Shown here: one piece after another, positions 5,455-44,753 of the stretch
Position numbering within the stretch: the first letter of the stretch is position 1
Layout: the number at the start of each line of letters is the position of its first letter
Origin: a virus
Taxonomy: Duplodnaviria > Heunggongvirae > Uroviricota > Caudoviricetes
Length of the DNA stretch: 49,062 bases
IMG/VR virus record: IMGVR_UViG_2917891409_000001
Location: 1 to 49,062 of that record
Direction: 5' to 3' (one strand)
Program-made: the position numbers and the translations under genes
The notes under the pieces: model-generated
What the model was told of the DNA's origin: nothing
Databases searched by the model: none
Seen by the model: only the letters and a program-made list of their open reading frames with translations

Positions 5455-5680
5455 GTCTTTTTTTTATATCGAACACATGGTGGCTCACTAGAACACCGGT
5501 AATTTTTGGCATAAAAAACTCCTTATTTGTTTAATTGAAATGCGATCAATAAATTCGATCACCAAAGAGATATTATTACTTTCACAAGAATAAATGTTGT
5601 TATTTGTTTATTATAAAACAATCATCACCCAGAAAAGAAAAAGATGCAGCTCGTTAACAAAAACCTTTGTGGCATATTAA

Positions 5681-5962: not shown

Positions 5963-5968
5963 GTTTTT

Positions 5969-6657: not shown

Positions 6658-6668
6658 ATCAGTCTCCT

Positions 6669-6848: not shown

Positions 6849-7017
6849 CTTACTGCGTACCCTTTCTTCCGCCTGTTCTGTGACGCGGTAGGCTTACGCT
6901 TTGCGGCAAAAGCCACCTGACCAAATGGATGGAGTACCGCTATCTTATGGTTGCTAATAACCAGCTCCACCACACGCACAGGTCGCTGTAAAAAAAAGTC
7001 GTTTTGCCTTACGGTTT
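6845..7017 (-). pseudogene. small ORF (MKNRKAK... paralog) interrupted at an A8 run (6990-6997)
   Basis: as written it stops after 22 codons; removing one A gives a 58-aa ORF whose TGA overlaps the next ATG (ATGA coupling). Confidence 0.3.
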
Positions 7018-7755: not shown

Positions 7756-7974
7756 TTCGAACCTCTCTGTTTACTGATAAGCTCCAGATCCTCCTGGCAA
7801 CTTGCACAAGTCCGACAACCCTGAACGGCCAGGCGTCTTCGTTCATCTATGGGGTCGCCACACTCACAACAATGAGTGGCAGATATAGCCTGGTGGTTCA
7901 GACGACGCATTTTTTATTGCTGTATTGCGCTGTAATTCTTCGATTTCTGATGCTGAATCAATGATGTCTGCCAT
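7752..7974 (-). pseudogene. TraR/DksA-family C4 zinc-finger protein, apparent +1 frameshift in T6 run at 7910-7915
   Basis: N-terminal frame MADIIDSASEIEELQRNTAIK, second frame MRRLNHQAISATHCCECGDPIDERRRLAVQGCRTCASCQ...; one fewer T restores a 73-aa ORF. Confidence 0.5.
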
Positions 7975-8072: not shown

Positions 8073-8288
8073 TCATCGCTCCTTAAAGACGCCGTTTAAC
8101 ATGCCGATCGCCAGGCTTAAATGAGTCGGTGTGAATCCCATCAGCGTTACCGTTTCGCGGTGCTTCTTCAGTACGCTACGGCAAATGTCATCGACGTTTT
8201 TATCCGGAAACTGCTGTCTGGCTTTTTTGATTTCAGAATTAGCCTGACGGGCAATGCTGCGAAGGGCGTTTTCCTGCTGAGGTGTCAT
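8073..8288 (-). CDS. hypothetical small protein (about 71 aa)
   Basis: internal ATG of 104-aa track ORF, avoiding overlap with upstream gene. Confidence 0.35.
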   Translation of the reverse strand: MTPQQENALRSIARQANSEIKKARQQFPDKNVDDICRSVLKKHRETVTLMGFTPTHLSLAIGMLNGVFKER

Positions 8289-8364
8289 TGAACAAGTCCC
8301 ATGTCGGCAAGCATAAGCACACAGAATATGAAGCCCGCTGCCAGAAAAATGCATTCCGTGGTTG

Positions 8365-8922
8365 TCATGCAGCCTCCCGACGGGCAAGAATCCTTGAGCC
8401 GAACGCCATCAACTCTCCACGATCAACGGTCGTAAAGTGGCAGTGTGTACGGGGGTATGGGTGCCAGATAATGAGCATCGAGCCTTTATTATTTCCACTG
8501 ACGGGTTTCCCGGTGAGTGGGTTAATAAATGCCAGTCGTCCTGCCGTGATGAATCTGACCTCACTGGCGGTTTGTATCGCTTCATGAAACCATCCGACAG
8601 ATGTGTCAGCAGGCAATAACATTACACATCCCACACTACTGAATTTGTTTTCAGTGGCTGCCTTTTTCACAAAAGGGGAAATATTGCTGTATGGTGGATT
8701 CAACCAGACATAACCAGAGGCATATCCCATTGCTTCAGGCCATGAAGTGGTTAATGTGTTCTGCTCCTGTGAGATAAAAAGCCGACATAGTCGGTTTTTT
8801 TCGCTGGCTGCAGCATCAAGTTGAAAAACGAACTCTGCATTAAGCGCAGCAAAAATCTCTGGTGGTGTGCGCCAGCTGTCGCGATGTTCGGCAGGAGTAT
8901 TGCTTCCGGTGAAATCAGTCAT
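8365..8922 (-). CDS. phage orphan DNA N6-adenine methyltransferase
   Basis: 185 aa with NPPY catalytic motif (WLNPPYS). Confidence 0.75.
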   Translation of the reverse strand: MTDFTGSNTPAEHRDSWRTPPEIFAALNAEFVFQLDAAASEKNRLCRLFISQEQNTLTTSWPEAMGYASGYVWLNPPYSNISPFVKKAATENKFSSVGCVMLLPADTSVGWFHEAIQTASEVRFITAGRLAFINPLTGKPVSGNNKGSMLIIWHPYPRTHCHFTTVDRGELMAFGSRILARREAA

Positions 8923-9077
8923 ACAGCCCCCCGTTTATTATTTATCTCCTCAGCCAGCCGCTGTGCTTTCAGGGGATTTCGGATAACAGAAAGGCCGGGA
9001 AATACCCAGCCTCGCTTTGTAACGGAGTAGACGAAAGTGATTGCGCCTACCCGGATATTATCGTGAGGATGCTTCAT
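8919..9077 (-). CDS. small hypothetical protein (52 aa)
   Basis: own translation; ATGA overlaps with exo stop and methyltransferase start. Confidence 0.35.
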
Positions 9078-9754
9078 CGCCATTGCTCCCCAAATACAAA
9101 ACCAATTTCAGCCAGTGCCTCGTCCATTTTTTCGATGAACTCCGGCACCATCTCGTCAAAACTCGCCATGTACTTTTCATCCCGCTCAACCACGACATAA
9201 TGCAGTCCTTCACGCTTCATACGCGGGTCATAGTTGGCAAAGTACCAGGCATCTTTTCGTGTCACCCACATGCTGTACTGCACCTGGGCCATGTAAGCCG
9301 ACTTTATGGCCTCGAAACCACCGAGCCGGAACTTCATGAAATCCCGGGAGGTAAACGGGCATTTCAGCTCAAGGCCATTGCCGTCACTGCATAAACCATC
9401 GGGAGAGCAGGCGGTGCGCATACTTTCGTCGCGATAGATGATCGGGGATTCAGTAACATTCACGCCGGAAGTGAATTCAAACAGAGTTCTGGCGTCGTTC
9501 TCGTACTGTTTTCCCCATGCCAGCGCCTTAGCATTAACTTCCGGAGCCACACCGGTGCAAACCTCAGCCAGCAGGGTGTGGAAGTAGGACATTTTCATGT
9601 CAGGCCACTTCTTTCCTGAGCGGGGCTTTGCTATCATGTTGTGAACTTCTGAAGCGGTGATGACGCCGAGCCGTAATTTGTGCCATGCATCATCCCCCTG
9701 TTCGACAGCTCTCACGTCGATCCCGGTACGCTGCAGGATAATGTCCGGTGTCAT
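9074..9754 (-). CDS. exo: lambda exonuclease (Red alpha)
   Basis: 226 aa, [37 protein letters not shown]... as lambda Exo. Confidence 0.95.
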
Positions 9755-10536
9755 GCTGCCACCTTCTGCTCAGTGGCTTTCTGTTTCAGGAATCCAAGAG
9801 CTTTCACTGCTTCGGCCTGTGTCAGTTCTGACGATGCGCGAATGTCGCGGCGAAATATCTGGGAACAGAGCGGCAATAAGTCGTCATCCCATGTTTTATC
9901 CAGGGCGATCAGCAGAGTGTTAATCTCCTGCATGGTTTCATCGTTAACCGGAGTGATGTCGCGTTCCGGCTGACGTTCTGCAGTGTATGCAGTATTTTCA
10001 ACAATGCGCTCGGCTTCATCCTTGTCATAGATACCAGCAAATCCGAAGGCGAGACGGGCACACTGAATCATGGCTTTATGCCGTAACATCCGTTTGGGAT
10101 GCGACTGCCACGGTCCCGTGATTTCTCTGCCTTCGCGGGTTTTGAATGGTTCGCGGCGACATTCATCCATCCACTCGGTAACGCAGATCGGATGATTGCG
10201 GTCCTTGCGGTAAATCCGGCATGTGCAGGATTCATTGTCCTGCTCAAAGTCCATACCATCAAACTGCTGGTTTTCATTGATGATGCGGGACCAGCCATCA
10301 ACGCCCACCACCGGAACGATGCCGTTCTGCTTATCAGGGAAGGCGTAAATTTCTTTCGTCCACGGATTAAGGCCGTACTGGTTGGCAACGATCAGTAATG
10401 CGATGAACTGCGCATCGCTGGCATCACCTTTAAATGCCGTCTGGCGAAGAGTGGTGATCAGTTCCTGTGGGTCAACAGAATCCATGCCGACACGTTCAGC
10501 CAGCTTCCCTGCCAGCGTTGCGAGTGCAGTACTCAT
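9751..10536 (-). CDS. bet: Red beta single-strand annealing protein
   Basis: 261 aa, [48 protein letters not shown]... as lambda Bet. Confidence 0.95.
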
Positions 10537-10541
10537 TCGTT

Positions 10542-10838
10542 TTATACCTCTGAATCAATATCAACCTGATGGTGAGCAATGGTTTCAACCATGTACCGGA
10601 TGTGTTCTGCCATGCGCTCCTGAAACTCAACATCGTCATCAAACGCACGGGTAATGGCTTTTTTGCTGGCCCCGTGGCGTTGCAAATGATCGATGCATAG
10701 CGATTCAAACAGGTGCTGGGGCAGGCCTTTTTCCATGTCGTCTGCCAGTTCTGCCTCTTTCTCTTCACGGGCGATCTGCTGGTAGTGACGCGCCCAGCTC
10801 TGAGCCTCAAGACGATCCTGAATGTAATAAGCGTTCAT
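10542..10838 (-). CDS. gam: Gam, RecBCD inhibitor (short form; a long form with upstream start is possible)
   Basis: 98 aa, [21 protein letters not shown]... as lambda Gam. Confidence 0.9.
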
Positions 10839-10913
10839 GGCTGAACTCCTGAAAATGGCTGTGAAACTATTGCCCGGGAAATGCCAGGCTGATTAGGAAA
10901 ACAGGAAAGGGGA

Positions 10914-11324
10914 TTAGTGATTCAGGCCGTTGCCTCGTCCGTCGAGAAAAACTTCCACGAGCAAATCACGGGTATAAGTGCGCTCGATGCCGCGATGCAG
11001 ATAAAGCCGTCCGCGTAAATTAGCTGATGCAGTCCAGGTACCATCTTTGTGTTTGACCAGCATTCCTGGCATGACCGCGCCGCGATTAACGGTCTGCGTT
11101 CCGTAATGTTGATGAACCATAAAAACTCCTGCCCGTAAGCTGGGCTGCTGAACATATAGAGACTTCTGCGCGTATTCAGGCGGTGGATGGCCGCCGGTTG
11201 TCATAACTAAGCCGCCTCGTTGAAGCGACTGAGGTATGAAGTGTTGAGTTGATTTCAGCTGGTCACACCGACGTTCACGCGTCCGCTTCACCCCTCGCAC
11301 TCCCCGGAGCCTGCTGAAATTCAA
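10914..11324 (-). CDS. hypothetical protein at N/kil position, first gene downstream of OL-like operators; start uncertain
   Basis: TTG-start ORF with Arg-rich N-terminus (RLRGVRGVKRTRERR); alternative ATG at 11204; not similar to recalled lambda N, Kil or CIII. Confidence 0.35.
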   Translation of the reverse strand: MNFSRLRGVRGVKRTRERRCDQLKSTQHFIPQSLQRGGLVMTTGGHPPPEYAQKSLYVQQPSLRAGVFMVHQHYGTQTVNRGAVMPGMLVKHKDGTWTASANLRGRLYLHRGIERTYTRDLLVEVFLDGRGNGLNH

Positions 11325-11395
11325 GCTGCGGATCTAAGCGGTCATCGCAACGGTGAATCAGGTGGTTGCCGTATCGTTGTGTTGTTGCGATATGG

Positions 11396-11450
11396 TGATA
11401 ATAGCTATTGCTATTGGTGATATCAATACTTATTGCTATTGACTGATGTG
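11396..11450. promoter_or_regulatory. putative OL operator cluster / pL region
   Basis: repeated TTGCTATTG motifs shared with the cI-cro intergenic region. Confidence 0.35.
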
Positions 11451-11559
11451 TTTTGATATTAAATGTTTGATAGCAAAAAGAATTAATTTTGTGACTTGCA
11501 TCGCATAGCGATAACTGAAGCGGGGTTGTGGTGGTTTTTTGAACGGTGTGTGTGATGAG

Positions 11560-11594
11560 GGTAGGGCAAAAGAAAACCCGGCGCGGTGGCCGGG
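11560..11594 (-). terminator. putative intrinsic terminator ending the cI-cassette operon
   Basis: GC hairpin CCCGGC..GCCGGG followed by T-rich tract on minus strand. Confidence 0.4.
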
Positions 11595-11602
11595 TAGCAT
11601 CA

Positions 11603-11794
11603 CTATTCGATTTTTTTAACCATGTAGTTACGTCGTGATGTTCCTAATCTTTCATTGTGAATCTCAGAAACGCTTACTACGAGCGATATTCGTTCACCAA
11701 CTTTATATTTACTTTGAATTTCTCCTAACATATCAATCGGATAAGAAGCCTTTATTTTTCCAAGCTCGCTTGCAATCTCCAATTTCCCGTACAT
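11603..11794 (-). CDS. small hypothetical protein (63 aa), third gene of rex-position cassette
   Basis: ORF directly downstream of the 221-aa gene, same strand. Confidence 0.45.
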   Translation of the reverse strand: MYGKLEIASELGKIKASYPIDMLGEIQSKYKVGERISLVVSVSEIHNERLGTSRRNYMVKKIE

Positions 11795-11868
11795 GGATAA
11801 AATAGCAAGTTCGCCTGATATATGCTCATCCGGTAGCTGAACGACCTTCGTTAAAGCTAAGCGAGCAT

Positions 11869-12534
11869 TCAGTTTTTTATATCTTCTGAAGAAATTGACA
11901 CTTGTCTGGTACCATCACTTAAAGGTCCAATCCAAGTAAGATCAAAGTTAAGACTATATTTTTCGCACTCATTTATGATGTTTTTTAGGTTAGCTGTTGA
12001 TTGCGAACCAATTTCGGCAATTTTAGCCGTGAATGTTTCTTCATCAATGGATGAGAGTAGTGCAAAAATCTCCTTAACAGCATGACTGGATACTGTTTCG
12101 ATGAGCTCGCAAGAACCAGTAGAAAAAGTAACACCTAACTTCGTCGAACCTGGACGCAAGTCTGCCAATCTCATGTCTAATGATTTTTTAACATCAATCG
12201 GCACACGACTAGAATCTTTCCCAGATCCAAGTCGGTAAACTGCTTTCTGTACAAGGGATGCGAGATTACCTGAAATTACAGATAGAATATCTAACGGAAT
12301 AGACCCGAAATCGACCAAAACACCTTTTAATCTCAACTCCATGAAATCACGTAAAGGATGTTGGTTATCGATTGCACGTTGTCTCTCTCGGAGATCGCTC
12401 AGATGGGAGTCAAGTGATCTAAATATAATGTCATCAGCAAATGATCTCCCCTTATTTTGAGCAAGCAGATCCACATCGCGTTGAATGAACGCAATTCGCT
12501 CCTTGAGGGAGTTGAATGTTTTTTCTTCGCTCAT
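11869..12534 (-). CDS. hypothetical protein (221 aa), partner of nucleotidyltransferase gene
   Basis: start overlaps stop of upstream gene by 4 bp; contains RAIDNQH (Rx5H, HEPN-like spacing, weak). Confidence 0.55.
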   Translation of the reverse strand: MSEEKTFNSLKERIAFIQRDVDLLAQNKGRSFADDIIFRSLDSHLSDLRERQRAIDNQHPLRDFMELRLKGVLVDFGSIPLDILSVISGNLASLVQKAVYRLGSGKDSSRVPIDVKKSLDMRLADLRPGSTKLGVTFSTGSCELIETVSSHAVKEIFALLSSIDEETFTAKIAEIGSQSTANLKNIINECEKYSLNFDLTWIGPLSDGTRQVSISSEDIKN

Positions 12535-13004
12535 AACATTACCCTCACGAGGCCTTTAGGATTCTCCTTCCGATCAAAACCAAACCACCCTCTCCAGTAA
12601 CTTCGCCTTTCACTATAATCGATTTCTGGATGATTTTCAGGCAGCAAAAGAACGTCAATGCTGTAGTTTTCTTTAATAAAATCTCTATTTAACAATGAGC
12701 TAACCAATGGCATCAGCGTGTTTGGCAAAGAGTTTAGGGCCAAATAATCGACGACCACGAGTATATCTATATCATCAGGTTCAGGTTTCTCTGTAGTGAA
12801 TGAACCATCGATCCACACTTCAGAAAAACATAGACACTGCTGATTAACAAGTTTAAATTGCTCAATAAGCTGTATAAAATTACAGTATAGCATACTTCTT
12901 CTAACGGATTTTGGGAAGGTGTCGACACAAAGAGACTTGATGCCATCACTATCCATATCATGAAATCCTGCTGTAAGAAGAGGTGGGAAGCTAGGCTTTT
13001 CCAT
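12531..13004 (-). CDS. nucleotidyltransferase-fold protein (pol-beta superfamily, minimal nucleotidyltransferase-like)
   Basis: 157 aa; motif DGSFTTEKPEPDDIDILVVVD fits G[SG]x9-13DxD, later acidic residue in SIDVLLL; sits where lambda has rexA. Confidence 0.6.
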   Translation of the reverse strand: MEKPSFPPLLTAGFHDMDSDGIKSLCVDTFPKSVRRSMLYCNFIQLIEQFKLVNQQCLCFSEVWIDGSFTTEKPEPDDIDILVVVDYLALNSLPNTLMPLVSSLLNRDFIKENYSIDVLLLPENHPEIDYSERRSYWRGWFGFDRKENPKGLVRVML

Positions 13005-13085
13005 CCTAAGTCCTTGTTTATGCCATATAGTGTTCTATTTAATATTCTTGAAAAGAGTGTGCCTTAAAAAGCTACAGGCTAATTA

Positions 13086-13613
13086 TTAACCATGCTTCCT
13101 GTACGTCTGCGGCATGCTCCCAATAACCTTACCGAAGATGAACACCCGGTTCATCTCGTCTTTCTCGATCGGGTCCCACGGTGAGTAGCTCTTGTTATCA
13201 GAGATAACCAGTAGCTTATCCTTCATCATTTGCAGGCGCTTTACATGGGCGGTGTCGTCATACAGAAACGCATAGATACCATCACCGTCGAAAGATTTAA
13301 CCGTGATATCAACGAACAGCAGATCACCTGGTTCGATCGTTCCTGACATGCTGTCACCACGCACGTTAATGATGCGGATATTTTCCGCCTTCCTGCCATC
13401 GAACATGTGACGAGCATCGTCAAACGAGTACTCAACCGAGCGTAGAACTTCTACAAACTCACGGTTGATTACACCCGGCCCAGCACTGACTTCTATATCA
13501 AGAACGTCAATCTTGAAGTATTTGGAATGGTTGACAGCAGGCTTCCCTGATTGTTGACCGTCATTTCTCATCGGGCCTATGCCTGATGAGAGCCACTCTG
13601 TTCGAACACCCAA
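13086..13613 (-). CDS. cI: CI-like repressor, C-terminal S24 peptidase (LexA-like autocleavage) domain fragment
   Basis: GDSM serine motif and downstream Lys; upstream frame is open and joins the HTH fragment if one T of the T6 run at 13634-13639 is removed. Confidence 0.7.
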   Translation of the reverse strand: MGVRTEWLSSGIGPMRNDGQQSGKPAVNHSKYFKIDVLDIEVSAGPGVINREFVEVLRSVEYSFDDARHMFDGRKAENIRIINVRGDSMSGTIEPGDLLFVDITVKSFDGDGIYAFLYDDTAHVKRLQMMKDKLLVISDNKSYSPWDPIEKDEMNRVFIFGKVIGSMPQTYRKHG

Positions 13614-13626
13614 TGCATTAGCTATT

Positions 13627-13779
13627 TCAACAATTTTTTGTTGAGCCGCGTGCGTTGCCGCTTGTTAGTCTCCAGATTGTGGGTTGAGCTACGCCAGACG
13701 CCTTTGCAAGAGCGCCTTGAGACATTCCAGATTGTTCCATCGCTAGGTTTAAGCGATCAGCAAGAGTTTCTTTTTTCAT
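13627..13779 (-). pseudogene. cI: CI-like repressor N-terminal HTH fragment (frameshifted relative to C-terminal domain)
   Basis: MKKETLADRLNLAMEQSGMSQGALAKASGVAQPTIWRL... HTH_XRE pattern, ends prematurely. Confidence 0.65.
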
Positions 13780-13789
13780 AAGTTTTTAA

Positions 13790-13870
13790 TTTATACGCTT
13801 GCGTATTGATGGTCAAAACATGTTTTGCTATTGATTGAATTAATACGCATTGCTATTATCCATTCATTGT
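13790..13870. promoter_or_regulatory. putative OR operators with divergent pRM/pR
   Basis: palindrome ATACGCTTGCGTAT plus repeated TTGC(G)TATTGAT motifs between divergent cI and cro-like genes. Confidence 0.4.
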
Positions 13871-13884
13871 AATACCAATAGGAA

Positions 13885-14118
13885 TTGATAATGACAAATC
13901 AAACCATTCAACTCGCAATCAGTATTACAGGTAGTCAAAAACGACTGGCAGATCTATGCGGTGTAGCCCAGCCCACTGTTTGGCGTTGGCTACACGGTGG
14001 CGGAATTGATGCCCGCTATGTAATGAAAATTGTCTCAGCCACTGGTGGAAAGATTAAACCAGCAGATATTCGTCCCGACCTTGCACCATTGTTTAACGCG
14101 AGTAATTCTGCCGCCTAA
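13885..14118 (+). CDS. cro: Cro-like HTH regulator
   Basis: 77 aa, HTH (LADLCGVAQPTVWRW), divergent from cI. Confidence 0.6.
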   Translation: MIMTNQTIQLAISITGSQKRLADLCGVAQPTVWRWLHGGGIDARYVMKIVSATGGKIKPADIRPDLAPLFNASNSAA

Positions 14119-14142
14119 ACTGCGGCGTTAACTGATAAGGCA

Positions 14143-14688
14143 ATGACTATGCAACCACTTACATACCAACAGACTAGCGGATTTAGCCCGACTGCGGTGA
14201 TAAATCGTTCTCAAACAAAACAGGCGCCAGGCCACGAAAAAATCCGTGATGCCGTTCGCGCCTGGTCGGCTGCAGATAATCAGGATGTTGTTGCCGCACT
14301 CATTGTGAATGAGTATCGGGAGCAGGGCGGCGGCACCATCGATTTCCCTGATGATGTCAGCCGTGCACGCCAGAAGCTGTTCCGCTTCCTCGATAACAAA
14401 TTCGATTCTGAAAAATACCGAAATAACGTGCGTGAACTGACCCCGGCAATTCTGGCGGTACTACCGCTGGAATATCGCGGCCACCTGGTTGAGCAGGATA
14501 GCTTCATGGCTCGGTTGGCTGAAATGGAAAAGGAACTCAGTGAGGCAAAGCAGGCGGTCATTCTCAACGCACCACGCCACCAGAAACTGAAGGAAATGAG
14601 TGAAGGTATTGTGTCGATGTTTCGTGTGGACCCGGATCTGGCTGGTCCATTAATGGCGATGGTGACCACCATGCTGGGGGCAATATGA
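14143..14688 (+). CDS. hypothetical regulatory protein at cII position
   Basis: 181 aa between cro-like gene and O; not lambda CII-like by sequence. Confidence 0.4.
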   Translation: MTMQPLTYQQTSGFSPTAVINRSQTKQAPGHEKIRDAVRAWSAADNQDVVAALIVNEYREQGGGTIDFPDDVSRARQKLFRFLDNKFDSEKYRNNVRELTPAILAVLPLEYRGHLVEQDSFMARLAEMEKELSEAKQAVILNAPRHQKLKEMSEGIVSMFRVDPDLAGPLMAMVTTMLGAI

Positions 14689-14773
14689 CAGGTTCAGAAA
14701 TGGCGAAAGCGGTCTGCGGGAACAGAGCCGACTTTCAGGTGCAAATCGTAACGCACTCATTGCGGAAGGAATT

Positions 14774-15703
14774 ATGGCAAACACTGCTGAGATATTCAAT
14801 TTTCCAGTGCCGGATGAGGCACAAAAGGAGCGGCGCGTGGCAGATCTCGATGATGGTTATACGCGCATTGCAAATGAGTTGCTGGAAGCTGTGATGCTGG
14901 CCGGATTAACACAGCACCAGCTTCTGGTCTTTCTGGCTGTCATGCGCAAAACATATGGCTTTAATAAAAAACTGGATTGGGTTAGCAACGAGCAACTTTC
15001 CGAATTAACCGGGATATTGCCGCACAAGTGTTCTGCTGCAAAAAGTGTTCTGGTAAAGCGTGGGATTTTTATTCAGAGCGGGCGGAATACCGGCATTAAT
15101 AATGTGGTCAGTGAATGGTCAACATTACCCGAATCAGGTAAGAAAAATAAAGTTTACCTGAAAGAGGTAAATTTACCTGAATCAGGTAAAAAAAGTTTAC
15201 CCAAATCAGGTAAAGACGTTTACCCGAATCAGGTAAACACAAAAGACAAAATAACAAAAGACAATATAAAACCTTATTCGTCCGAGAATTCTGGCGAATC
15301 CTCTGACCAGCCAGAAAACGACCTTCCTGTGGTGAAACCGGATGCTGCGATTCAGAGCGGCAGCAAGTGGGGGACAGCAGAAGACCTGACCGCCGCAGAG
15401 TGGATGTTTGACATGGTGAAGACCATCGCGCCATCAGCCAGAAAACCGAATTTTGCAGGGTGGGCTAACGATATCCGCCTGATGCGTGAACGTGACGGAC
15501 GTAACCACCGCGACATGTGCGTGCTGTTCCGCTGGGCATGCCAGGACAACTTCTGGTCCGGTAACGTGCTAAGTCCGGCCAAACTCCGTGACAAGTGGAC
15601 CCAACTCGAAATCAACCGTAACAAGCAACAGGCTGGAGTGACAGCCGGAAAATCAAAACTGGACCTGACAAACACTGACTGGATTTATGGGGTGGATTTA
15701 TGA
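14774..15703 (+). CDS. O: replication initiator O
   Basis: 309 aa; internal iterons; C-terminus matches recalled lambda O. Confidence 0.85.
   Translation: MANTAEIFNFPVPDEAQKERRVADLDDGYTRIANELLEAVMLAGLTQHQLLVFLAVMRKTYGFNKKLDWVSNEQLSELTGILPHKCSAAKSVLVKRGIFIQSGRNTGINNVVSEWSTLPESGKKNKVYLKEVNLPESGKKSLPKSGKDVYPNQVNTKDKITKDNIKPYSSENSGESSDQPENDLPVVKPDAAIQSGSKWGTAEDLTAAEWMFDMVKTIAPSARKPNFAGWANDIRLMRERDGRNHRDMCVLFRWACQDNFWSGNVLSPAKLRDKWTQLEINRNKQQAGVTAGKSKLDLTNTDWIYGVDL
15120..15275. repeat. ori: ori iterons (about five TACCYGAATCAGGTAA-like repeats) plus AT-rich tract inside O
   Basis: direct repeats read in sequence; established lambda ori architecture. Confidence 0.7.
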
Positions 15704-16401
15704 AAAACATCGCCGCACAAATGGTTAACTTTGACTGTGAGCAGATGCGCCGGATCGCCAACAACATGCCGGAACAGTACGACGAAAAGCCACAGGTACA
15801 GCAGGTAGCGCAGATCATCAACGGTGTGTTCAGGCAGTTACTGGCAACTTTCCCGGCGAGCCTGGCTAACCGTGACCAGAATGAACTGAACGAAATCCGC
15901 CGCCAGTGGGTTCTGGCTTTCCGGGAAAACGGGATCACCACAATGGAACAGGTTAACGCAGGAATGCGCGTAGCCCGTCGGCAGAATCGACCATTCCTGC
16001 CATCACCCGGGCAGTTTGTGGCCTGGTGCCGGGAAGAAGCATCCGTTAACGCCGGGCTGCCAAACGTCAGCGAGCTGGTTGATATGGTTTACGAGTATTG
16101 CCGGAAGCGTGGCCTGTATCCGGATGCAGAGTCTTATCCGTGGAAATCGAACGCGCATTACTGGTTGGTTACCAACTTGTACCAGAACATGCGGGCCAAT
16201 GCGCTGACTGACGCGGAATTACGGCGCAAGGCTGCCGATGAACTGACCTGTATGACAGCGCGAATTAACCGTGGTGAGACGATACCTGAACCAGTAAAAC
16301 AACTTCCTGTTATGGGCGGTAGACCTCTAAATCGTGCACAGGCTCTGGCGAAGATCGCAGAAATTAAAGCTAAGTTCGGACTGAAAGGAGCAAGTGTATG
16401 A
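15700..16401 (+). CDS. P: replication protein P (DnaB loader)
   Basis: 233 aa, same length and recalled sequence as lambda P. Confidence 0.9.
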   Translation: MKNIAAQMVNFDCEQMRRIANNMPEQYDEKPQVQQVAQIINGVFRQLLATFPASLANRDQNELNEIRRQWVLAFRENGITTMEQVNAGMRVARRQNRPFLPSPGQFVAWCREEASVNAGLPNVSELVDMVYEYCRKRGLYPDAESYPWKSNAHYWLVTNLYQNMRANALTDAELRRKAADELTCMTARINRGETIPEPVKQLPVMGGRPLNRAQALAKIAEIKAKFGLKGASV

Positions 16402-16697
16402 CGGGCAAAGAGGCAATTATTCATTACCTGGGGACGCATAAGAGCTTCTGTGCACAGGACGTTGCCGCGGTAACAGGCGCAACCGTAACCAGCATAAATC
16501 AGGCTGCGGCTAAAATGGCGCGGGCAGGAATCCTGGTCGTTGATGGTAAGGTCTGGCGAACGGTGTATTACAGGTTCGCTACCAGGGAAGAACGGGAAGG
16601 AAAGGTGAGCACGAATCTGATTTTCAAGGAGTGTCGCCAGAGTGCCGCGATGAAGCGGGTTTTATTTGTTTATGCGGCGGGGGGAGGAAATCAGTGA
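16398..16697 (+). CDS. ren: Ren
   Basis: 99 aa, MTGKEAIIHYLGTHKSFCAQDVAAVTGATVTSINQAA... as lambda Ren. Confidence 0.8.
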   Translation: MTGKEAIIHYLGTHKSFCAQDVAAVTGATVTSINQAAAKMARAGILVVDGKVWRTVYYRFATREEREGKVSTNLIFKECRQSAAMKRVLFVYAAGGGNQ

Positions 16698-16972
16698 GGT
16701 TGACGATAACTAATATCTGGCGCTATATTCTGTGTGTTGCCGCAAAATCGGCACACGGGATTGGCGTCCCGGATAAGGTAATCGCGACTACTACACGCCG
16801 CGAGCGTGTTTTTTATTGTCGTAAGCATACGCACATCTGAATTATGGTGGGGCGTGTAGGGCCGACTTCGGTCGGGCCGGTTGATTACCCCGGTTACGCC
16901 AACCCTACATGTCTCACCACCAAACTGATTGGCGTCAGCGGTGGTGGTTAACTTGATTTATAGGTAATCATC

Positions 16973-17578
16973 ATGAGCACACAACTAGTCTTTCATCAAA
17001 CAAAATTCCATCCTGTTAAACACAACAACAGTATCTGGCTTACTGCCGTTGAGATTGCTCAAGCTCTCGGATATAAAAAATCTGATGCCGTAACTCAGAT
17101 CTACGATCGAAATTCCGATGAATTTAGGGCAGATATGACTGAGACCCTCAATTTGAGTGTCTCAGGGAACTACCAGAAAACAATACGCATTTTCTCCCTC
17201 CGTGGTGCCCATTTGATCGCTATGTTCGCCCGCACTCCTGTAGCCAAAGAATTCCGCCGCTGGGTTCTGGATATTCTCGATCGAGAAGTTCAACAATCCC
17301 CAATCACAAAACAATTCACTGATAACGAACTTTGCACACTCGCCTGGTTATGGCGAGCAGGGGATGTGATGTTAACCGCCTGCCAGAATGTTACTCCACT
17401 TCTTCAGGTTGCGGAGCATCGCGAAGCCGGTCGCTTTACTTCTATTGAGCAAGAATATCCCCAGATACTACATAAGGCGCGCGAAATCCTTGCCAGAGAA
17501 ACGGCACATGTAAGATTCCAGCCGTGGCAGGATGATAAGTGGAGCCGAGTATTGCCGCATTTGCGTTCTGAGCAGTAG
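16973..17578 (+). CDS. phage antirepressor-like protein (Bro-N/KilA-N-type N-terminus)
   Basis: 201 aa; HNNSIWLTAVEIAQALGY motif. Confidence 0.6.
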   Translation: MSTQLVFHQTKFHPVKHNNSIWLTAVEIAQALGYKKSDAVTQIYDRNSDEFRADMTETLNLSVSGNYQKTIRIFSLRGAHLIAMFARTPVAKEFRRWVLDILDREVQQSPITKQFTDNELCTLAWLWRAGDVMLTACQNVTPLLQVAEHREAGRFTSIEQEYPQILHKAREILARETAHVRFQPWQDDKWSRVLPHLRSEQ

Positions 17579-17816
17579 CAATAAAGTTTCCGGTGAGAAA
17601 TGTCACCAGCATTTTGTTATGAAACGGGTATTGGCGGTATATTGGGGGCGGGGCTTTAGTTATTAGGTGTCGAGAATTAATTGTTTGTAGCAATATAAAA
17701 AGGAGCGCTTAAGTTCGTTTATTTTTTAAGCTTCATATACATAGTGGATAAAAATGAGAACCACCCGCTGAACGGGTGGTTTTGCGCAAGTTAAATTTTA
17801 TAATTTCAGTGAATCT

Positions 17817-32767: not shown

Positions 32768-32824
32768 CTTTACCCTTCATCACTAAAGGCCGCCTGTGCG
32801 GCTTTTTTTTACGGGATTTTTTTT

Positions 32825-36397: not shown

Positions 36398-36820
36398 ATG
36401 TTCCTGAAAACCGAATCATTTGAACATAACGGTGTGACCGTCACGCTTTCTGAACTGTCAGCCCTGCAGCGTATTGAGCATCTTGCCTGGTTGAAAGAGC
36501 AGGAAAAAAAGGCTGAATCCAGTGGCAACCTGCAGGTGTCTGTAGAGGATCTTATCAGAGGCGGGGCGTTTCTGGTGGCGATGTCTCTGTGGCATAACCA
36601 TCCGCAGAAGACAAAGCTGCCGTCCATGAATGAAGCCATTACGCAGATTGAGCAGGAAGTGCTTACCACCTGGCCCACGGAGGCAATTGCTCAGGCTGAA
36701 AACGTGGTGTTACGTCTGTCCGGAATGTCTGAGTTTGTGGTGAATAATGCCCCTGAACAGGCAGAGGACGCCGGGGCTGCAGAGCCTGTTTCTGCGGGAA
36801 AGTGTTCGACGGTGAGCTGA
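36398..36820 (+). CDS. G: tail assembly chaperone G
   Basis: 140 aa as lambda gpG. Confidence 0.9.
   Translation: MFLKTESFEHNGVTVTLSELSALQRIEHLAWLKEQEKKAESSGNLQVSVEDLIRGGAFLVAMSLWHNHPQKTKLPSMNEAITQIEQEVLTTWPTEAIAQAENVVLRLSGMSEFVVNNAPEQAEDAGAAEPVSAGKCSTVS
36796..36802 (+). promoter_or_regulatory. programmed -1 ribosomal frameshift slippery site GGGAAAG (G to G-T)
   Basis: heptamer G GGA AAG in G frame near G stop; established for lambda G/GT. Confidence 0.75.
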
Positions 36821-37236: not shown

Positions 37237-39790
37237 ACCGGTAGGCGATCTGGTCGTTGATTTAAGTCTGGATGCGACCAGATTTGACGAGCAGATGGCC
37301 AGAGTCAGGCGTCATTTTTCCGGTACGGAAACTGATGCGAAAAAAACAGCGGCAGTCGTTGAACAGTCGCTGAGCCGGCAGGCGCTGGCTGCACAGAAAG
37401 CGGGGATTTCCGTCGGGCAGTATAAAGCCGCCATGCGTATGCTGCCTGCACAGTTCACCGACGTGGCCACGCAGCTTGCAGGCGGGCAAAGCCCGTGGCT
37501 GATCCTGCTGCAACAGGGTGGTCAGGTTAAGGACTCCTTCGGCGGGATGATCCCCATGTTCCGGGGGCTTGCCGGTGCGATCACCCTGCCGATGGTCGGG
37601 GCCACCTCGCTGGCGGTGGCGACCGGTGCGCTGGCGTATGCCTGGTATCAGGGTAACTCAACCCTGTCCGATTTCAACAAAACGCTGGTCCTTTCCGGTC
37701 ATCAGTCAGGTCTGACGGCAGATCGTATGCTGGTCCTGTCCAGAGCCGGGCAGGCGGCAGGGCTGACGTTTAACCAGACCAGCGAGTCACTCAGCGCACT
37801 GGTTAAGGCGGGGGTAAGCGGTGAGGCTCAGATTGCGTCCATCAGCCAGAGTGTGGCGCGTTTCTCCTCTGCATCCGGCGTGGAGGTGGACAAGGTCGCT
37901 GAAGCCTTCGGGAAGCTGACCACAGACCCGACGTCAGGGCTGACAGCGATGGCGCGCCAGTTCCATAACGTGACGGCGGAGCAGATTGCGTATGTTGCTC
38001 AGTTGCAGCGTTCCGGCGATGAGGCCGGGGCATTGCAGGCGGCGAACGAGGCCGCAACGAAAGGGTTTGATGACCAGACCCGCCGCCTGAAAGAGAACAT
38101 GGGCACGCTGGAGACCTGGGCAGACAGGACAGCACGGGCATTCAAATCCATGTGGGATGCGGTGCTGGATATTGGTCGTCCTGATACCGCTCAGGAGATG
38201 CTGATTAAGGCAGAGGCTGCGTTTAAGAAAGCGGACGACATCTGGAATCTGCGCAAGGATGATTATTTTGTTAACGATGAAGCGCGGGCGCGTTACTGGG
38301 ATGATCGTGAAAAGGCCCGTCTTGCGCTTGAAGCCGCCCGAAAGAAGGCTGAACAGCAGAGTCAACAGGACAAAAATGCGCAGCAGCAGAGCGATACCGA
38401 AGCGTCACGGCTGAAATATACCGAAGAGGCGCAGAAGGCTTACGAACGGCTGCAGACGCCGCTGGAGAAATATACCGCCCGTCAGGAAGAACTGAACAAG
38501 GCACTGAAAGACGGGAAAATCCTGCAGGCAGATTACAACACGCTGATGGCGGCGGCGAAAAAGGATTATGAAGCGACGCTGAAAAAGCCGAAACAGTCCG
38601 GCGTGAAGGTGTCTGCGGGCGATCGTCAGGAAGACAGTGCTCATGCCGCCCTGCTGACGCTTCAGGCAGAACTCCGGACGCTGGAGAAGCATGCCGGAGC
38701 GAATGAGAAAATCAGCCAGCAGCGCCGGGATTTGTGGAAGGCAGAAAGTCAGTTCGCGGTACTGGAGGAGGCGGCACAACGTCGCCAGCTGTCCGCACAG
38801 GAGAAATCCCTGCTGGCGCATAAAGATGAGACGCTGGAGTACAAACGCCAGCTGGCTGCACTTGGCGATAAGGTCACGTATCAGGAGCACCTGAACGCGC
38901 TGGCGCAGCAGGCGGATAAATTCGCACAGCAACAACGGGCAAAACGGGCAGCCATTGAGGCGAAAAACCGGGGGCTGACTGACCGGCAGGCAGCGCGGGA
39001 CGCCACGGAACAGCGCCTGAAGGAACAGTATGGCGATAATCCGCTGGCGCTGAATAGCGTCATGTCAGAGCAGAAAAAGACCTGGGCGGCTGAAGACCAG
39101 CTTCGCGGGAGCTGGATGGCAGGCCTCAAGTCAGGCTGGAGTGAGTGGGAAGAGAGCGCCACGGACAGTATGTCGCAGGTTAAAAGTGCAGCCACACAGA
39201 CCTTTGATGGTATTGCACAGAATATGGCGGCGATGCTGACCGGCAGTGAACAGAACTGGCGCAGCTTCACCCGTTCCGTGCTGTCCATGATGACAGAAAT
39301 TCTGCTTAAGCAGGCAATGGTGGGGATTGTCGGGAGTATCGGCAGCGCCATTGGAGGTGCTACCGGTGGCGGCTCATCAGCGTCAGGTGGTGCAGCCATT
39401 CAGGCAGCTGCGGCGAAACTCCATTTTGCGACCGGAGGATTTACGGGAACCGGCGGCAAATATGAGCCAGCGGGGATTGTTCACCGTGGTGAATTTGTCT
39501 TCACGAAGGAGGCAACCAGCCGGATTGGCGTGGGGAATCTTTACCGGCTGATGCGCGGCTATGCCACCGGCGGCTATGTCGGTACACCGGGCAGCATGGC
39601 GGACAGTCGGTCGCAGGCGTCCGGGAAGTTTGAGCAGAATAACCATGTGGTGATTAACAACGACGGCACGAACGGGCAGATAGGTCCGGCTGCTCTGAAG
39701 GCGGTGTATGACATGGCCCGCAAGGGTGCCCGTGATGAAATTCAGACACAGATGCGTGATGGTGGCCTGTTCTCCGGAGGTGGACGATGA
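37229..39790 (+). CDS. H: tail tape measure protein H
   Basis: 853 aa as lambda gpH. Confidence 0.95.
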   Translation: MAEPVGDLVVDLSLDATRFDEQMARVRRHFSGTETDAKKTAAVVEQSLSRQALAAQKAGISVGQYKAAMRMLPAQFTDVATQLAGGQSPWLILLQQGGQVKDSFGGMIPMFRGLAGAITLPMVGATSLAVATGALAYAWYQGNSTLSDFNKTLVLSGHQSGLTADRMLVLSRAGQAAGLTFNQTSESLSALVKAGVSGEAQIASISQSVARFSSASGVEVDKVAEAFGKLTTDPTSGLTAMARQFHNVTAEQIAYVAQLQRSGDEAGALQAANEAATKGFDDQTRRLKENMGTLETWADRTARAFKSMWDAVLDIGRPDTAQEMLIKAEAAFKKADDIWNLRKDDYFVNDEARARYWDDREKARLALEAARKKAEQQSQQDKNAQQQSDTEASRLKYTEEAQKAYERLQTPLEKYTARQEELNKALKDGKILQADYNTLMAAAKKDYEATLKKPKQSGVKVSAGDRQEDSAHAALLTLQAELRTLEKHAGANEKISQQRRDLWKAESQFAVLEEAAQRRQLSAQEKSLLAHKDETLEYKRQLAALGDKVTYQEHLNALAQQADKFAQQQRAKRAAIEAKNRGLTDRQAARDATEQRLKEQYGDNPLALNSVMSEQKKTWAAEDQLRGSWMAGLKSGWSEWEESATDSMSQVKSAATQTFDGIAQNMAAMLTGSEQNWRSFTRSVLSMMTEILLKQAMVGIVGSIGSAIGGATGGGSSASGGAAIQAAAAKLHFATGGFTGTGGKYEPAGIVHRGEFVFTKEATSRIGVGNLYRLMRGYATGGYVGTPGSMADSRSQASGKFEQNNHVVINNDGTNGQIGPAALKAVYDMARKGARDEIQTQMRDGGLFSGGGR

Positions 39791-40116
39791 AAACCTTCCG
39801 CTGGAAAGTGAAACCCGGTATGGATGTGGCTTCGGCCCCTTCCGTCAGGAAGGTGCGCTTTGGTGATGGCTATTCCCAGCGAGCGCCTGCCGGGCTGAAT
39901 GCCGACCTGAAAACGTACAGCGTGACGCTTTCTGTTCCCCGTTGGGAGGCCGCGGCGCTGGAGTCGTTTCTGGCTGAGCACGGGGGCTGGAAGGCCTTTC
40001 TGTGGACGCCGCCTTATGACTGGCGGCAGATAAAGGTGACCTGCGCAAAATGGTCGTCGCGGGTCAGTATGCTGCGTGTTGAGTTCAGCGCAGAGTTTGA
40101 ACAGGTGGTGAACTGA
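39787..40116 (+). CDS. M: tail tip protein M
   Basis: 109 aa as lambda gpM. Confidence 0.9.
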   Translation: MKTFRWKVKPGMDVASAPSVRKVRFGDGYSQRAPAGLNADLKTYSVTLSVPRWEAAALESFLAEHGGWKAFLWTPPYDWRQIKVTCAKWSSRVSMLRVEFSAEFEQVVN

Positions 40117-40815
40117 TGCAGGATATCCGACAGGAAACACTGAATGAATGCACCCGTGCGGAGCAGTCTGCCAGCGTGGTGCTCTGGGAAATCGATCTGA
40201 CAGAGGTTGGTGGAGAACGTTTATTTTTTCTGTAATGAGCTGAACGAAAAAGGTGAGCCGGTCACCTGGCAGGGGCGACAGTATCAGGCGTATCCCATTC
40301 AGGGGAGTGGTTTCGAACTGAATGGCAAAGGCACCAGTACGCGCCCCACGCTGGCAGTCTCTAACCTGTACGGCATGGTCACCGGGATGGCGGAAGATCT
40401 GCAGAGTCTGGTCGGCGGAACGGTGGTCAGGCGTAAGGTTTATGCCCGTTTTCTGGATGCGGTGAACTTCGTCAACGGAAACAGCGACGCCGATCCGGAG
40501 CAGGAGGTGATTAGCCGCTGGCGCATCGAGCAGTGCAGCGAACTGAGCGCGGTCAGTGCCTCCTTTGTACTGTCCACGCCGACTGAAACGGATGGTGCCG
40601 TTTTTCCGGGGCGCATCATGCTGGCTAATACCTGCACCTGGACCTATCGCGGTGATGAGTGCGGTTATAACGGTCCGGCGGTCGCGGATGAATATGACCA
40701 GCCGACGTCCGATATCACGAAGGATAAATGCAGCAAATGCCTGAGTGGCTGTAAGTTTCGCAATAATGTCGGCAATTTTGGCGGCTTCCTTTCCATTAAC
40801 AAACTTTCGCAGTAA
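40116..40815 (+). CDS. L: tail tip protein L, apparent +1 frameshift near 40220-40229
   Basis: N-terminal 39 codons MQDIRQETLNECTRAEQSASVVLWEIDLTEVGGER in one frame, remainder (track ORF 40207-40815) in +1 frame. Confidence 0.75.
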
Positions 40816-40820
40816 ATCCC

Positions 40821-41564
40821 ATGACAGAGACAGAATCAGCGATTCTGGCGCACGCCCGACGATGTGCGCCAGCGGAGTCGTGCGGCTTCGTGGTGAGAAC
40901 GCCGGAGGGGGAAAAATATTTCCCCTGCGTGAATATCTCCGGTGAGCCGGAGGAGTATTTCCGGATGTCGCCGGAGGACTGGCTGCGGGCAGAAATGCAG
41001 GGTGAGATTGTGGCGCTGGTCCACAGCCACCCCGGTGGTCTGCCCTGGCTGAGTGAGGCCGACCGGCGGCTGCAGGTGCAGAGTGATTTGCCGTGGTGGC
41101 TGGTCTGCCGGGGGGCGATTCATAAGTTCCGCTGTGTGCCGCATCTCACCGGGCGGCGCTTTGAGCACGGGGTGACGGACTGTTACACGCTGTTCCGGGA
41201 TGCTTATCATCTGGCGGGGATTGAGATGCCGGATTTTCATCGCGAGGATGACTGGTGGCGTAACGGTCAGAATCTCTATCTGGATAATCTGGAGGCCACA
41301 GGGCTGTATCAGGTGCCGTTGTCATCAGCACAACCGGGCGATGTGCTGCTGTGCTGTTTTGGTTCATCGGTGCCGAATCATGCCGCCATTTACTGTGGTG
41401 ACGGCGAGCTGCTGCACCATATTCCTGAACAACTGAGCAAACGAGAGAGGTACACCGACAAATGGCAGCGACGCACACACTCCCTCTGGCGTCACCGGGC
41501 ATGGCACGCATCTGCCTTTACGGGGATTTACAACGATTTGGCCGCCGCATCGACCTTCGTGTGA
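40821..41564 (+). CDS. K: tail tip protein K
   Basis: MTETESAILAHARRCAPAESCGFVV... as lambda gpK. Confidence 0.9.
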   Translation: MTETESAILAHARRCAPAESCGFVVRTPEGEKYFPCVNISGEPEEYFRMSPEDWLRAEMQGEIVALVHSHPGGLPWLSEADRRLQVQSDLPWWLVCRGAIHKFRCVPHLTGRRFEHGVTDCYTLFRDAYHLAGIEMPDFHREDDWWRNGQNLYLDNLEATGLYQVPLSSAQPGDVLLCCFGSSVPNHAAIYCGDGELLHHIPEQLSKRERYTDKWQRRTHSLWRHRAWHASAFTGIYNDLAAASTFV

Positions 41565-42166: not shown

Positions 42167-44692
<2,526 letters not shown>

Positions 44693-44753
44693 CGCCAGCA
44701 GACTGGATCAGTTTTCCAAAGAGTGGAAAGACGCCAACGATAAATGGAATGCC

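What the first reader, a model, noticed from the sequence alone, without database searches (positions are those of the whole stretch)
40116..40815. Tail tip gene L interrupted after 39 codons
The lambda-like L N-terminus terminates at 40233 while the remainder of L is read in the +1 frame from about 40207. A single T deletion in the TTTATTTTTT tract restores a full-length L. As written, the prophage could not build a tail tip.
Basis: seen in the sequence. Interest (0 to 1): 0.45.

Follow-up and report, generated by a model that had tools for sequence, protein, structure and literature searches.

The report
Sequencing-error frameshift in prophage gene L
The break in the lambda-like tail-tip gene L really is in the deposited sequence, but it is almost certainly one of many single-base errors from Ion Torrent sequencing and not a genuine defect of the prophage.

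Summary
L reads 39 codons (40116..40235) and continues in the +1 frame (40207..40815). Removing one T from TTT (40220-40222) gives a 232-aa L that aligns full-length with lambda gpL.

The biological reading is not supported. The window is 100% identical to contig PDIH01000072.1 of Escherichia cryptic clade II strain E2586, an Ion Torrent draft (45x, single-end reads). Independent assemblies of the same prophage cover 32.7 kb of the window. They differ from it at 10 positions. All 10 are one extra base in the window within a same-base run; there are no substitutions. Three of them break L, J (44667) and antiterminator Q (23319). Removing each extra base gives a protein identical to the sister assembly's.

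None of 7,872 L copies in 4,086 complete E. coli genomes has the extra T. Neither do the species-representative genomes or the metagenome contigs. The only other carrier is the E. coli MS 124-1 draft, whose prophage has five single-base indels in tail genes.

Best explanation: a run-length sequencing or assembly error (about 0.85). Rivals: a real recent frameshift (about 0.1), or recoding (about 0.02). Low interest. Raw reads were not examined.

The parts
40116..40815 (+). Lambda-type tail tip gene L, split in the deposited sequence by one extra T
   Evidence: After the extra T is removed it encodes 232 aa that align full-length with lambda gpL (PDB 8IYK_L, E = 1.5e-155) and match PF05100. The repaired protein is identical to sister assembly L137.
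40116..40235 (+). N-terminal L fragment, 39 codons plus stop (TAA at 40233-40235)
   Evidence: No protein with this exact sequence is on record.
40220..40229 (+). The tract TTTATTTTTT. TTT (40220-40222) is TT in every comparator; the T6 run (40224-40229) is unchanged
   Evidence: Absent from 7,872 L copies in 4,086 complete E. coli genomes.
40207..40815 (+). Remainder of L as an ORF in the +1 frame (202 aa counted from TTG)
   Evidence: PF05100 E = 5e-98.
42170..45569 (+). Tail tip gene J, split into 840-aa and 271-aa ORFs by one extra A in the run at 44667-44672 (A6 here, A5 elsewhere)
   Evidence: Removing one A gives 1132 aa identical to the sister's J.
22912..23602 (+). Antiterminator Q gene, truncated at 140 aa by one extra A in the run at 23319-23324 (A6 here, A5 elsewhere)
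   Evidence: Removing one A gives 229 aa identical to the sister's Q.
5458..5465 (.). T8 run, T7 in RHJN01. The same A8/A7 discordance occurs between PDIE01 and RHJQ01. It shortens the adjacent Invasin_D4-like gene from 233 to 214 aa
6749..6753 (.). C5 run, C4 in RHJN01. It lies in a small gene called in RHJN01 but with no protein on record for the window's contig
6990..6997 (.). A8 run, A7 in RHJN01. It lies in a small gene called in RHJN01 but with no protein on record for the window's contig
7910..7915 (.). T6 run, T5 in RHJN01 and in four unrelated E. coli assemblies (L155, L141, L144, L145)
26418..26421 (.). T4 run, T3 in three independent read-level assemblies (SRR8835202, SRR8061821, SRR6148324)
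32803..32824 (.). Two T8 runs (32803-32810 and 32817-32824) between genes D and E, both T7 in the sister assemblies. The second is also T8 in E. coli MS20659, so it is ambiguous

Best explanation
The extra T that splits L is an error in the deposited consensus. It is a run-length or high-frequency-indel miscall of the kind made by Ion Torrent (flow-based) sequencing, carried into the MIRA/SPAdes assembly of strain E2586. Shown here: the platform; the window's identity with that contig; and the fact that every difference from independent assemblies of the same prophage is one extra base in a same-base run. Inferred: that the E2586 DNA molecule carries TT at this site, and therefore an intact L, J and Q and a potentially functional tail tip.
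For: (1) Source and platform. The window is 100% identical to PDIH01000072.1. The genome announcement lists PDIH00000000 as strain E2586, sequenced with single-end Ion Torrent reads of 35-400 nt at 45x and assembled with MIRA and SPAdes (PMC6639607).
(2) Pattern of differences. Sister contigs (RHJN01 and the Logan assemblies of SRR8835202, SRR8061821 and SRR6148324) cover 32,669 nt of the window. There are 10 differences, all +1 base in the window within a same-base run, 9 of them A or T, with 0 substitutions and 0 deletions. The two-sided chance of 10 of 10 going in one direction is 0.002.
(3) The window's versions are the broken ones. Removing each extra base restores L (232 aa), J (1132 aa) and Q (229 aa), each identical to the sister protein. 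Three further insertions coincide with genes that are shorter, or have no protein on record, only in the window's contig.
(4) Independent support. Unrelated complete genomes agree with the sister assemblies at 5 of 6 testable sites. A second PDI*/RHJ* assembly pair shows the same kind of A8/A7 discordance with 0 substitutions over 5.1 kb.
(5) Rarity. The extra T is absent from 4,086 complete E. coli genomes (7,872 L copies), from 445 genomes with the window's own local variant, from the GTDB species representatives and from the metagenome contigs. In viral contigs it occurs once, against at least 120 intact copies.
(6) Run-length dependence. All four 8-base runs in the covered regions are discordant, against 3 of 28 six-base runs.
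(7) Literature. Ion Torrent high-frequency indel errors occur about once per 1,000-2,000 nt, are most often A/T insertions, cause frameshifts in assemblies, and are mostly not reproduced between runs (PMC3623719). Ion Torrent assemblies show frameshifts and raised pseudogene counts (PMC12046094). CDS density in the announcement's Table 1 is high for E2586, about 1,027 per Mb against about 910-930 per Mb for the 100x strains (my arithmetic).
Against: No raw reads were examined, so the error is inferred and not observed. I could not establish whether the sister assemblies come from strain E2586 itself or from clonal sister isolates, so a mutation private to E2586 is not formally excluded. The L site is atypical: it is a 2-base run called as 3, the only discordant one among 1,096 three-base runs. 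PMC3623719 reports that long runs tend to be under-called, whereas here 7-base runs read as 8. The identical insertion also occurs in a different prophage of E. coli MS 124-1. Under uniformly random errors that coincidence is unlikely, about 2 chances in 597 runs. It points to site-specific behaviour that I cannot attribute to chemistry as opposed to mutation. The sequencing technology of the MS 124-1 draft was not verified.
Confidence: 0.85

Rival explanations
1. It is a genuine, very recent frameshift in the E2586 prophage. Replication slippage added a T, L became a pseudogene, and the prophage is tail-defective.
For: The break is in the public record, and no protein is on record for the L interval there, which fits a pseudogene. 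Prophages do decay, and the contig ends in an IS fragment just beyond the tail-fibre gene. The same insertion in MS 124-1 could indicate a mutational hotspot.
Against: It would require 10 single-base insertions and no substitution in 32.7 kb relative to otherwise identical prophages. From my memory of E. coli mutation-accumulation studies (not checked here), indels are about a tenth of point mutations in wild type and perhaps a quarter to a third in mismatch-repair mutants. That gives P of about 1e-10 to 6e-6 for 10 of 10. Extrapolated, the rate implies about 1,560 such indels genome-wide, which is implausible for a free-living isolate. Slippage should favour the adjacent T6 run over the 2-base run. 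None of 7,872 L copies in complete genomes has it. The platform is known for exactly this artefact.
Confidence: 0.1
2. It is recoding. The extra T is real, and L is still made by a +1 ribosomal slip of tRNA-Phe on U UUU UUC, or by RNA polymerase slippage on the T6 run, giving G-G-E-R-L-F-F-C-N in place of G-G-E-R-Y-F-F-C-N.
For: By inspection of the sequence, tRNA-Phe can re-pair perfectly one base downstream within UUUUUU, and the zero-frame stop lies two codons later. The same change occurs in two different prophages.
Against: The frameshift is not conserved: 0 of 7,872 copies in complete genomes, none in the GTDB representatives or metagenome contigs, and identical sister prophages lack it. 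No stimulatory feature is evident; the next zero-frame codon is CUG, which is common in E. coli (my knowledge). From memory, a 6-base run is short for efficient transcriptional slippage. J and Q carry similar one-base insertions, which argues for a general error process and not a dedicated signal in L.
Confidence: 0.02
3. It is an assembly consensus artefact caused by collapsing reads from two paralogous L genes in the same genome, and not a base-calling error.
For: The Logan contig L125 stops at 40205, just before a site (40208) that differs between L variants. That pattern would be expected if the genome had a second L copy. Many public short-read assemblies break 30-45 codons into L.
Against: The known L variants do not differ in length at this tract, so mixing them would not create an insertion. 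The other nine insertions lie in regions with no sign of duplication.
Confidence: 0.03

Closest known systems
Bacteriophage lambda tail tip protein L (gpL; PDB 8IYK chain L; Pfam PF05100 Phage_tail_L)
   Same: After the extra T is removed, the protein is 232 aa and aligns end to end with lambda gpL (E = 1.5e-155). This includes the C-terminal cysteine-rich segment, which reads identically in the alignment. Gene order is lambda-like, H-M-L-K-I-J-lom-tail fibre.
   Different: As deposited, the reading frame is broken after codon 39. By my count of the alignment there are six amino-acid differences from lambda gpL. The host is Escherichia cryptic clade II, not E. coli K-12.
Ion Torrent run-length and high-frequency-indel (HFI) errors in draft assemblies (Bragg et al. 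2013, PMC3623719; PMC12046094)
   Same: Single-base indels, mainly A/T insertions, at roughly one per few kb. They produce frameshifts, are not reproduced in independent data sets, and come without substitutions.
   Different: All discordant long runs here are over-called, while PMC3623719 reports a tendency to under-call long runs. The L site recurs in a second, unrelated draft (MS 124-1), whose platform I could not verify.
Programmed -1 frameshift in the lambda tail chaperone genes G/GT
   Same: It is a real frameshift in the same tail operon. The window has the heptamer GGGAAAG at 36796, near the end of G where the T frame overlaps.
   Different: From established knowledge, the G/GT shift is conserved across long-tailed phages. 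The L break is not conserved: 0 of 7,872 copies.

Membership tests
Lambda gpL / Pfam PF05100 Phage_tail_L | Significant full-length match to the family profile | tested here: met
   Repaired protein: PF05100 positions 1-206 of 206, E = 3.7e-100. C-terminal fragment alone: positions 6-206, E = 5.1e-98.
Lambda gpL / Pfam PF05100 Phage_tail_L | End-to-end similarity to the structurally characterised lambda gpL | tested here: met
   Residues 1-232 align with 1-232 of 8IYK chain L, E = 1.5e-155.
Lambda gpL / Pfam PF05100 Phage_tail_L | Position in the tail-tip gene block between M and K | tested here: met
   M at 39787..40116 (PF05939), L, K at 40821..41564 (JAB/NlpC_P60), I (PF06805), then J.
Lambda gpL / Pfam PF05100 Phage_tail_L | A single uninterrupted reading frame | tested here: not met
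   In the deposited sequence the frame stops at 40233-40235. It is met only after one T is removed.
Flow-based sequencing run-length / HFI artefact | The sequence derives from a flow-based platform | tested here: met
   Window = PDIH01000072.1. PDIH00000000 = strain E2586, Ion Torrent single-end reads, 45x (PMC6639607).
Flow-based sequencing run-length / HFI artefact | Differences from independent assemblies of the same DNA are single-base indels in same-base runs, without substitutions | tested here: met
   10 indels, 0 substitutions in 32,669 nt. A second PDI*/RHJ* pair shows 1 indel, 0 substitutions in 5.1 kb.
Flow-based sequencing run-length / HFI artefact | The indel is not reproduced in independent data sets for the same element | tested here: met
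   RHJN01, SRR8835202 and SRR6148324 all have TT at the L site. Whether any of them is the same strain is unknown.
Flow-based sequencing run-length / HFI artefact | Reads at the site are mixed or strand-biased in run length | not testable with these tools
Programmed frameshift / transcriptional slippage (recoding) | The frameshift is conserved among homologues | tested here: not met
   0 of 7,872 L copies in 4,086 complete genomes; 0 in the GTDB representatives and metagenome contigs; 1 against at least 120 in viral contigs.
Programmed frameshift / transcriptional slippage (recoding) | A slippery sequence that allows re-pairing in the new frame | tested here: met
   By inspection, UUU UUU C permits +1 re-pairing of tRNA-Phe. 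The T6 run is present in all intact L genes too, so this feature does not discriminate.
Programmed frameshift / transcriptional slippage (recoding) | A stimulatory element or slow-to-decode codon at the shift site | not tested
   None is evident by inspection, and no folding or reporter test was done.
Genuine prophage pseudogene | The lesion is reproducible on independent sequencing of the same strain | not testable with these tools
   Requires the reads or resequencing of E2586.
Genuine prophage pseudogene | The lesion sits in a background of ordinary divergence (substitutions as well as indels) from close relatives | tested here: not met
   0 substitutions against 10 insertions.

The most novel reading that the evidence does not exclude
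The extra T is real in both E2586 and MS 124-1. In that case CGTT-A-TTTTTT in L would be a recurrent insertion hotspot in lambdoid prophages, and a small amount of functional L (with Y36L) would still be made by +1 slippage on the U6 run. That would leave the prophage leaky and not dead.
Probability: 0.03. Interest if true: 0.4.

Novelty: not a real feature. Interest (0 to 1): 0.05.

Why it matters
Biologically it matters very little. The prophage is an ordinary lambda-like element beside ybhC (the lambda attachment-site region in E. coli, from my knowledge) whose tail-tip genes are most probably intact. The practical lesson is about data quality. In this draft, and probably across the PDH*/PDI* Ion Torrent set, single-base 'pseudogenes' at same-base runs should not be read as gene decay. 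That applies to prophage completeness calls, pseudogene counts and pan-genome analyses of Escherichia cryptic clade II. If the break were real, it would only mean one more tail-defective prophage.

Tried and rejected
(1) Exact look-ups of the truncated products in the window (39-aa L fragment, 840-aa J fragment) found nothing on record. This fits the record treating them as pseudogenes but gave no recurrence data.
(2) The exact broken-tract pattern gave 0 hits in the species-representative genomes and the metagenome contigs.
(3) I searched the literature for the RHJN/RHJQ assemblies to learn their strain and platform and found nothing. So I cannot say whether they are E2586 resequenced or sister isolates, nor confirm that they are Illumina data.
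(4) I considered that L003 was the early draft of E. coli MS 85-1, its best match. I rejected this because of 74 substitutions. Exact protein look-up identified it as MS 124-1.
(5) I considered that the sister assemblies under-call and the window is correct. I rejected this because the window's versions break conserved genes and unrelated complete genomes side with the sisters at 5 of 6 sites.
(6) I tried to derive a simple flow-order (carry-forward or incomplete-extension) mechanism for TT being called as TTT next to A-T6. I could not derive one convincingly and do not claim one.
(7) I considered a paralogue-collapse artefact and judged it unlikely, because the L variants have the same tract length.
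(8) One paper search failed on a term-length limit and was repeated.

Full report
**1. The observation**

The window has an ATG at 40116. It reads 39 codons, MQDIRQETLNECTRAEQSASVVLWEIDLTEVGGERLFFL, and stops at TAA 40233-40235. A second ORF in the +1 frame runs 40207..40815. The downstream ORF matches Pfam PF05100 (Phage_tail_L) over profile positions 6-206 of 206, E = 5e-98. By eye, the first 35 residues of the upstream piece match lambda gpL in the alignment.

Alignment to intact relatives places the lesion exactly. Relatives read CG-TT-A-TTTTTT-C and the window reads CG-TTT-A-TTTTTT-C. The extra base is therefore in the short run at 40220-40222, and the T6 run at 40224-40229 is unchanged. 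Deleting one T in silico gives a 232-aa protein. That protein aligns residue 1-232 with lambda tail tip protein L (PDB 8IYK chain L, E = 1.5e-155).

**2. Surroundings**

The region is a lambda-like morphogenesis block: terminase, portal, protease, D, E, FI, FII, Z, U, V, G/T, H, M, L, K, I, J, lom and tail fibre. The prophage lies next to ybhC, the lambda attachment-site region in E. coli by my knowledge. L is not the only broken gene.
- J is split into 840-aa and 271-aa ORFs by an extra A in the run at 44667-44672.
- Antiterminator Q stops after 140 aa because of an extra A in the run at 23319-23324.
- Removing one base from each restores a 1132-aa J and a 229-aa Q.

**3. Where the window comes from**

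No complete E. coli genome contains this sequence. The ybhC flank is only 96-97% identical to all of them, and bases 1-692 have no match. Exact protein look-ups placed the window on NCBI contig PDIH01000072.1 of assembly GCA_004745335.1, with 100% identity over all stretches compared. That record has no protein across the L or J intervals.

[quoted passage not shown] It was sequenced with single-end Ion Torrent reads of 35-400 nt at 45x and assembled with MIRA and SPAdes.

**4. The decisive comparison**

The same prophage occurs in other public assemblies:
- NCBI RHJN01 (contigs 10 and 50);
- Logan read-level assemblies of SRR8835202, SRR8061821 and SRR6148324.

Together they cover window 1-7989 and 21439-46118, a total of 32,669 nt. 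Across that length there are 10 differences from the window:

| Window position | Window run | Sister run | Effect |
|---|---|---|---|
| 5465 | T8 | T7 | shortens the adjacent Invasin_D4-like gene (214 vs 233 aa) |
| 6753 | C5 | C4 | in a small gene called only in RHJN01 |
| 6997 | A8 | A7 | in a small gene called only in RHJN01 |
| 7915 | T6 | T5 | not examined |
| 23319 | A6 | A5 | breaks Q |
| 26418 | T4 | T3 | unclear |
| 32803 | T8 | T7 | non-coding, between D and E |
| 32817 | T8 | T7 | non-coding, between D and E |
| 40220 | T3 | T2 | breaks L |
| 44667 | A6 | A5 | breaks J |

There are no substitutions and no deletions. L136 (SRR8835202) is identical to the window over 12.3 kb apart from the L and J bases, and it is 100% identical to RHJN01 where the two overlap.

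Further points:
- The repaired L, J and Q are each identical to the sister proteins.
- At 26418, three independent read sets agree against the window.
- A second assembly pair, PDIE01 and RHJQ01, shows the same behaviour: one A8/A7 difference and no substitution in 5.1 kb.
- Unrelated complete genomes agree with the sisters at 7915, 23319, 32803, 40220 and 44667. Only at 32817 does one relative share the window's T8.
- All four 8-base runs in the covered part of the window are discordant, against 3 of 28 six-base runs.
- Against more distant relatives, the cI-like repressor region also has T6/T5 and T5/T4 differences at 13634 and 13783, and the window lacks one base at 14709.

**5. How common is the L break elsewhere?**

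| Collection | Result |
|---|---|
| Complete E. coli genomes, window's local variant | 445 genomes match, none with the extra T |
| Complete E. coli genomes, commoner local variant | 4,086 genomes (7,872 L copies) match, none with the extra T |
| GTDB species-representative genomes | 0 matches to the broken tract |
| Metagenome contigs | 0 matches to the broken tract |

The single other carrier (L003) is a different prophage, with unrelated H and M genes and a diverged L N-terminus. Exact protein look-up identifies it as E. coli MS 124-1, a draft with HMPREF locus tags (EFK71001.1 and EFK71002.1, each seen on one contig). Compared with its closest complete relative, that prophage has five single-base indels. 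They lie in genes annotated there as the tail protein at the V position, the tape measure (two), L and J. There is no substitution across the 4.3 kb around L. The other 30-45-aa 'L' proteins in the same cluster read normally through the tract and are simply cut at contig ends.

**6. Interpretation**

Ten single-base insertions with no substitution, all in same-base runs, nine of them A or T, all in one direction, three of them breaking conserved phage genes, in an Ion Torrent draft: this is the signature of a platform and assembly artefact. The literature describes Ion Torrent high-frequency indel errors at about one per 1,000-2,000 nt. They are most commonly A/T insertions, are mostly not reproduced between runs, and cause frameshifts in assemblies (PMC3623719). 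Raised frameshift and pseudogene counts in Ion Torrent assemblies are also reported (PMC12046094).

The rate seen here, extrapolated, predicts about 1,560 such sites genome-wide. That fits E2586's relatively high CDS density in the announcement's Table 1 (my arithmetic). A real mutational origin would need indels to make up 10 of 10 differences. From my memory of E. coli mutation-accumulation data (not checked here), indels are roughly 10% of mutations in wild type and 25-30% in repair-deficient lines. The probability is then 1e-10 to 6e-6.

**7. What remains unexplained**

- The L site is a two-base run and not a long one. Its recurrence in MS 124-1 is unlikely under uniformly random error, about 2 chances in 597 runs in the shared region.
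- PMC3623719 notes that high-frequency indel sites overlap between runs more than chance would predict, which suggests motif dependence. I could not derive a specific mechanism for this context, and I did not verify the MS 124-1 platform.
- PMC3623719 reports under-calling of long runs, whereas the window over-calls them.
- I could not determine whether the sister assemblies are the same strain, and no reads were inspected.

These points keep the confidence at about 0.85 and not higher.

**8. Alternatives**

- A genuine private frameshift in E2586: about 0.1.
- Recoding by +1 slippage on U UUU UUC: about 0.02. It is mechanically conceivable by inspection but unsupported by conservation.
- Paralogue collapse during assembly: about 0.03. 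L variants do not differ in tract length.

**9. Verdict**

The gene is an ordinary member of the lambda gpL family. The 'interruption' is best filed as not a real feature, and interest is low.

Noticed in passing
window 42170-45569 (extra A in run 44667-44672): Tail tip gene J is split into 840-aa and 271-aa ORFs by one extra A (A6 here, A5 in sisters and relatives). Removing it gives a 1132-aa J identical to the sister assembly's.
   Followed up: yes
window 22912-23602 (extra A in run 23319-23324): Antiterminator Q is truncated at 140 aa by one extra A. The sister assembly and E. coli F374 have A5 and a 229-aa Q. No protein is on record for this interval in the window's contig.
   Followed up: yes
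window 13086-13800 and 14709: The cI-like repressor is 161 aa on record here against 230 aa in relatives. Compared with non-sister relatives the window has T6/T5 at 13634 and T5/T4 at 13783, and it lacks one base at 14709 (AAAG-CGG). No sister assembly was obtained for 7990-21438, so these remain unassigned.
   Followed up: partly
L003:5517, 6788, 7831, 9684, 12718 (E. coli MS 124-1 prophage): The only other sequence with the same extra T in L has five single-base indels relative to the MS 85-1 complete genome. Each lies in a tail gene that is intact there. The draft's sequencing platform was not verified.
   Followed up: partly
window about 40205-40250; protein cluster 1: Hundreds of public short-read contigs end 30-45 codons into L (partial L proteins of 30-45 aa, on up to 152 contigs each). 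Logan contig L125 also ends at 40205. This is where the variable 5' end of L meets the highly conserved remainder, so it is probably a repeat or mosaic boundary shared by co-resident lambdoid prophages.
   Followed up: no
window 36796-36802: The heptamer GGGAAAG lies near the end of gene G, where the T frame overlaps. This is consistent with the conserved programmed -1 frameshift that makes the G-T tail chaperone fusion in lambda-like phages, and it appears undisturbed.
   Followed up: partly
window 48703-49062 (- strand): A transposase fragment (rve integrase-core domains) sits just after the tail-fibre gene, and the source contig ends there. The distal tail-fibre and assembly genes seen in relatives (L001) are therefore missing from the window, either because of an IS insertion or because the assembly breaks at a repeat.
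   Followed up: no
window 1-2100: Bases 1-692, including a 217-aa ORF with no Pfam hit on record, match none of 5,426 complete E. coli genomes by megablast. ybhC is only 96-97% identical to all of them. Both fit the cryptic clade II host. The integrase (2121-3191) abuts ybhC, the region that in E. coli holds the lambda attachment site (my knowledge).
   Followed up: partly
window 46835-46989 and 47024-47178: Two copies of a roughly 155-nt direct repeat, about 91% identical to each other, lie inside the 787-aa tail-fibre gene.
   Followed up: no
window 32817-32824: This T8 run is T7 in the sister assemblies but also T8 in E. coli MS20659. Unlike the other discordant runs, it may be a genuine length polymorphism in the non-coding stretch upstream of the major capsid gene.
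   Followed up: partly
L131 and L139 (Logan SRR6148324): This read-level assembly of the same prophage has its own scattered single-base indels (A7/A8 at window 387, GG/G at 2773 splitting the integrase, GG/G at 40353 splitting L). This suggests it is another Ion Torrent data set from the same project. Errors differ between data sets, as the literature describes.
   Followed up: partly
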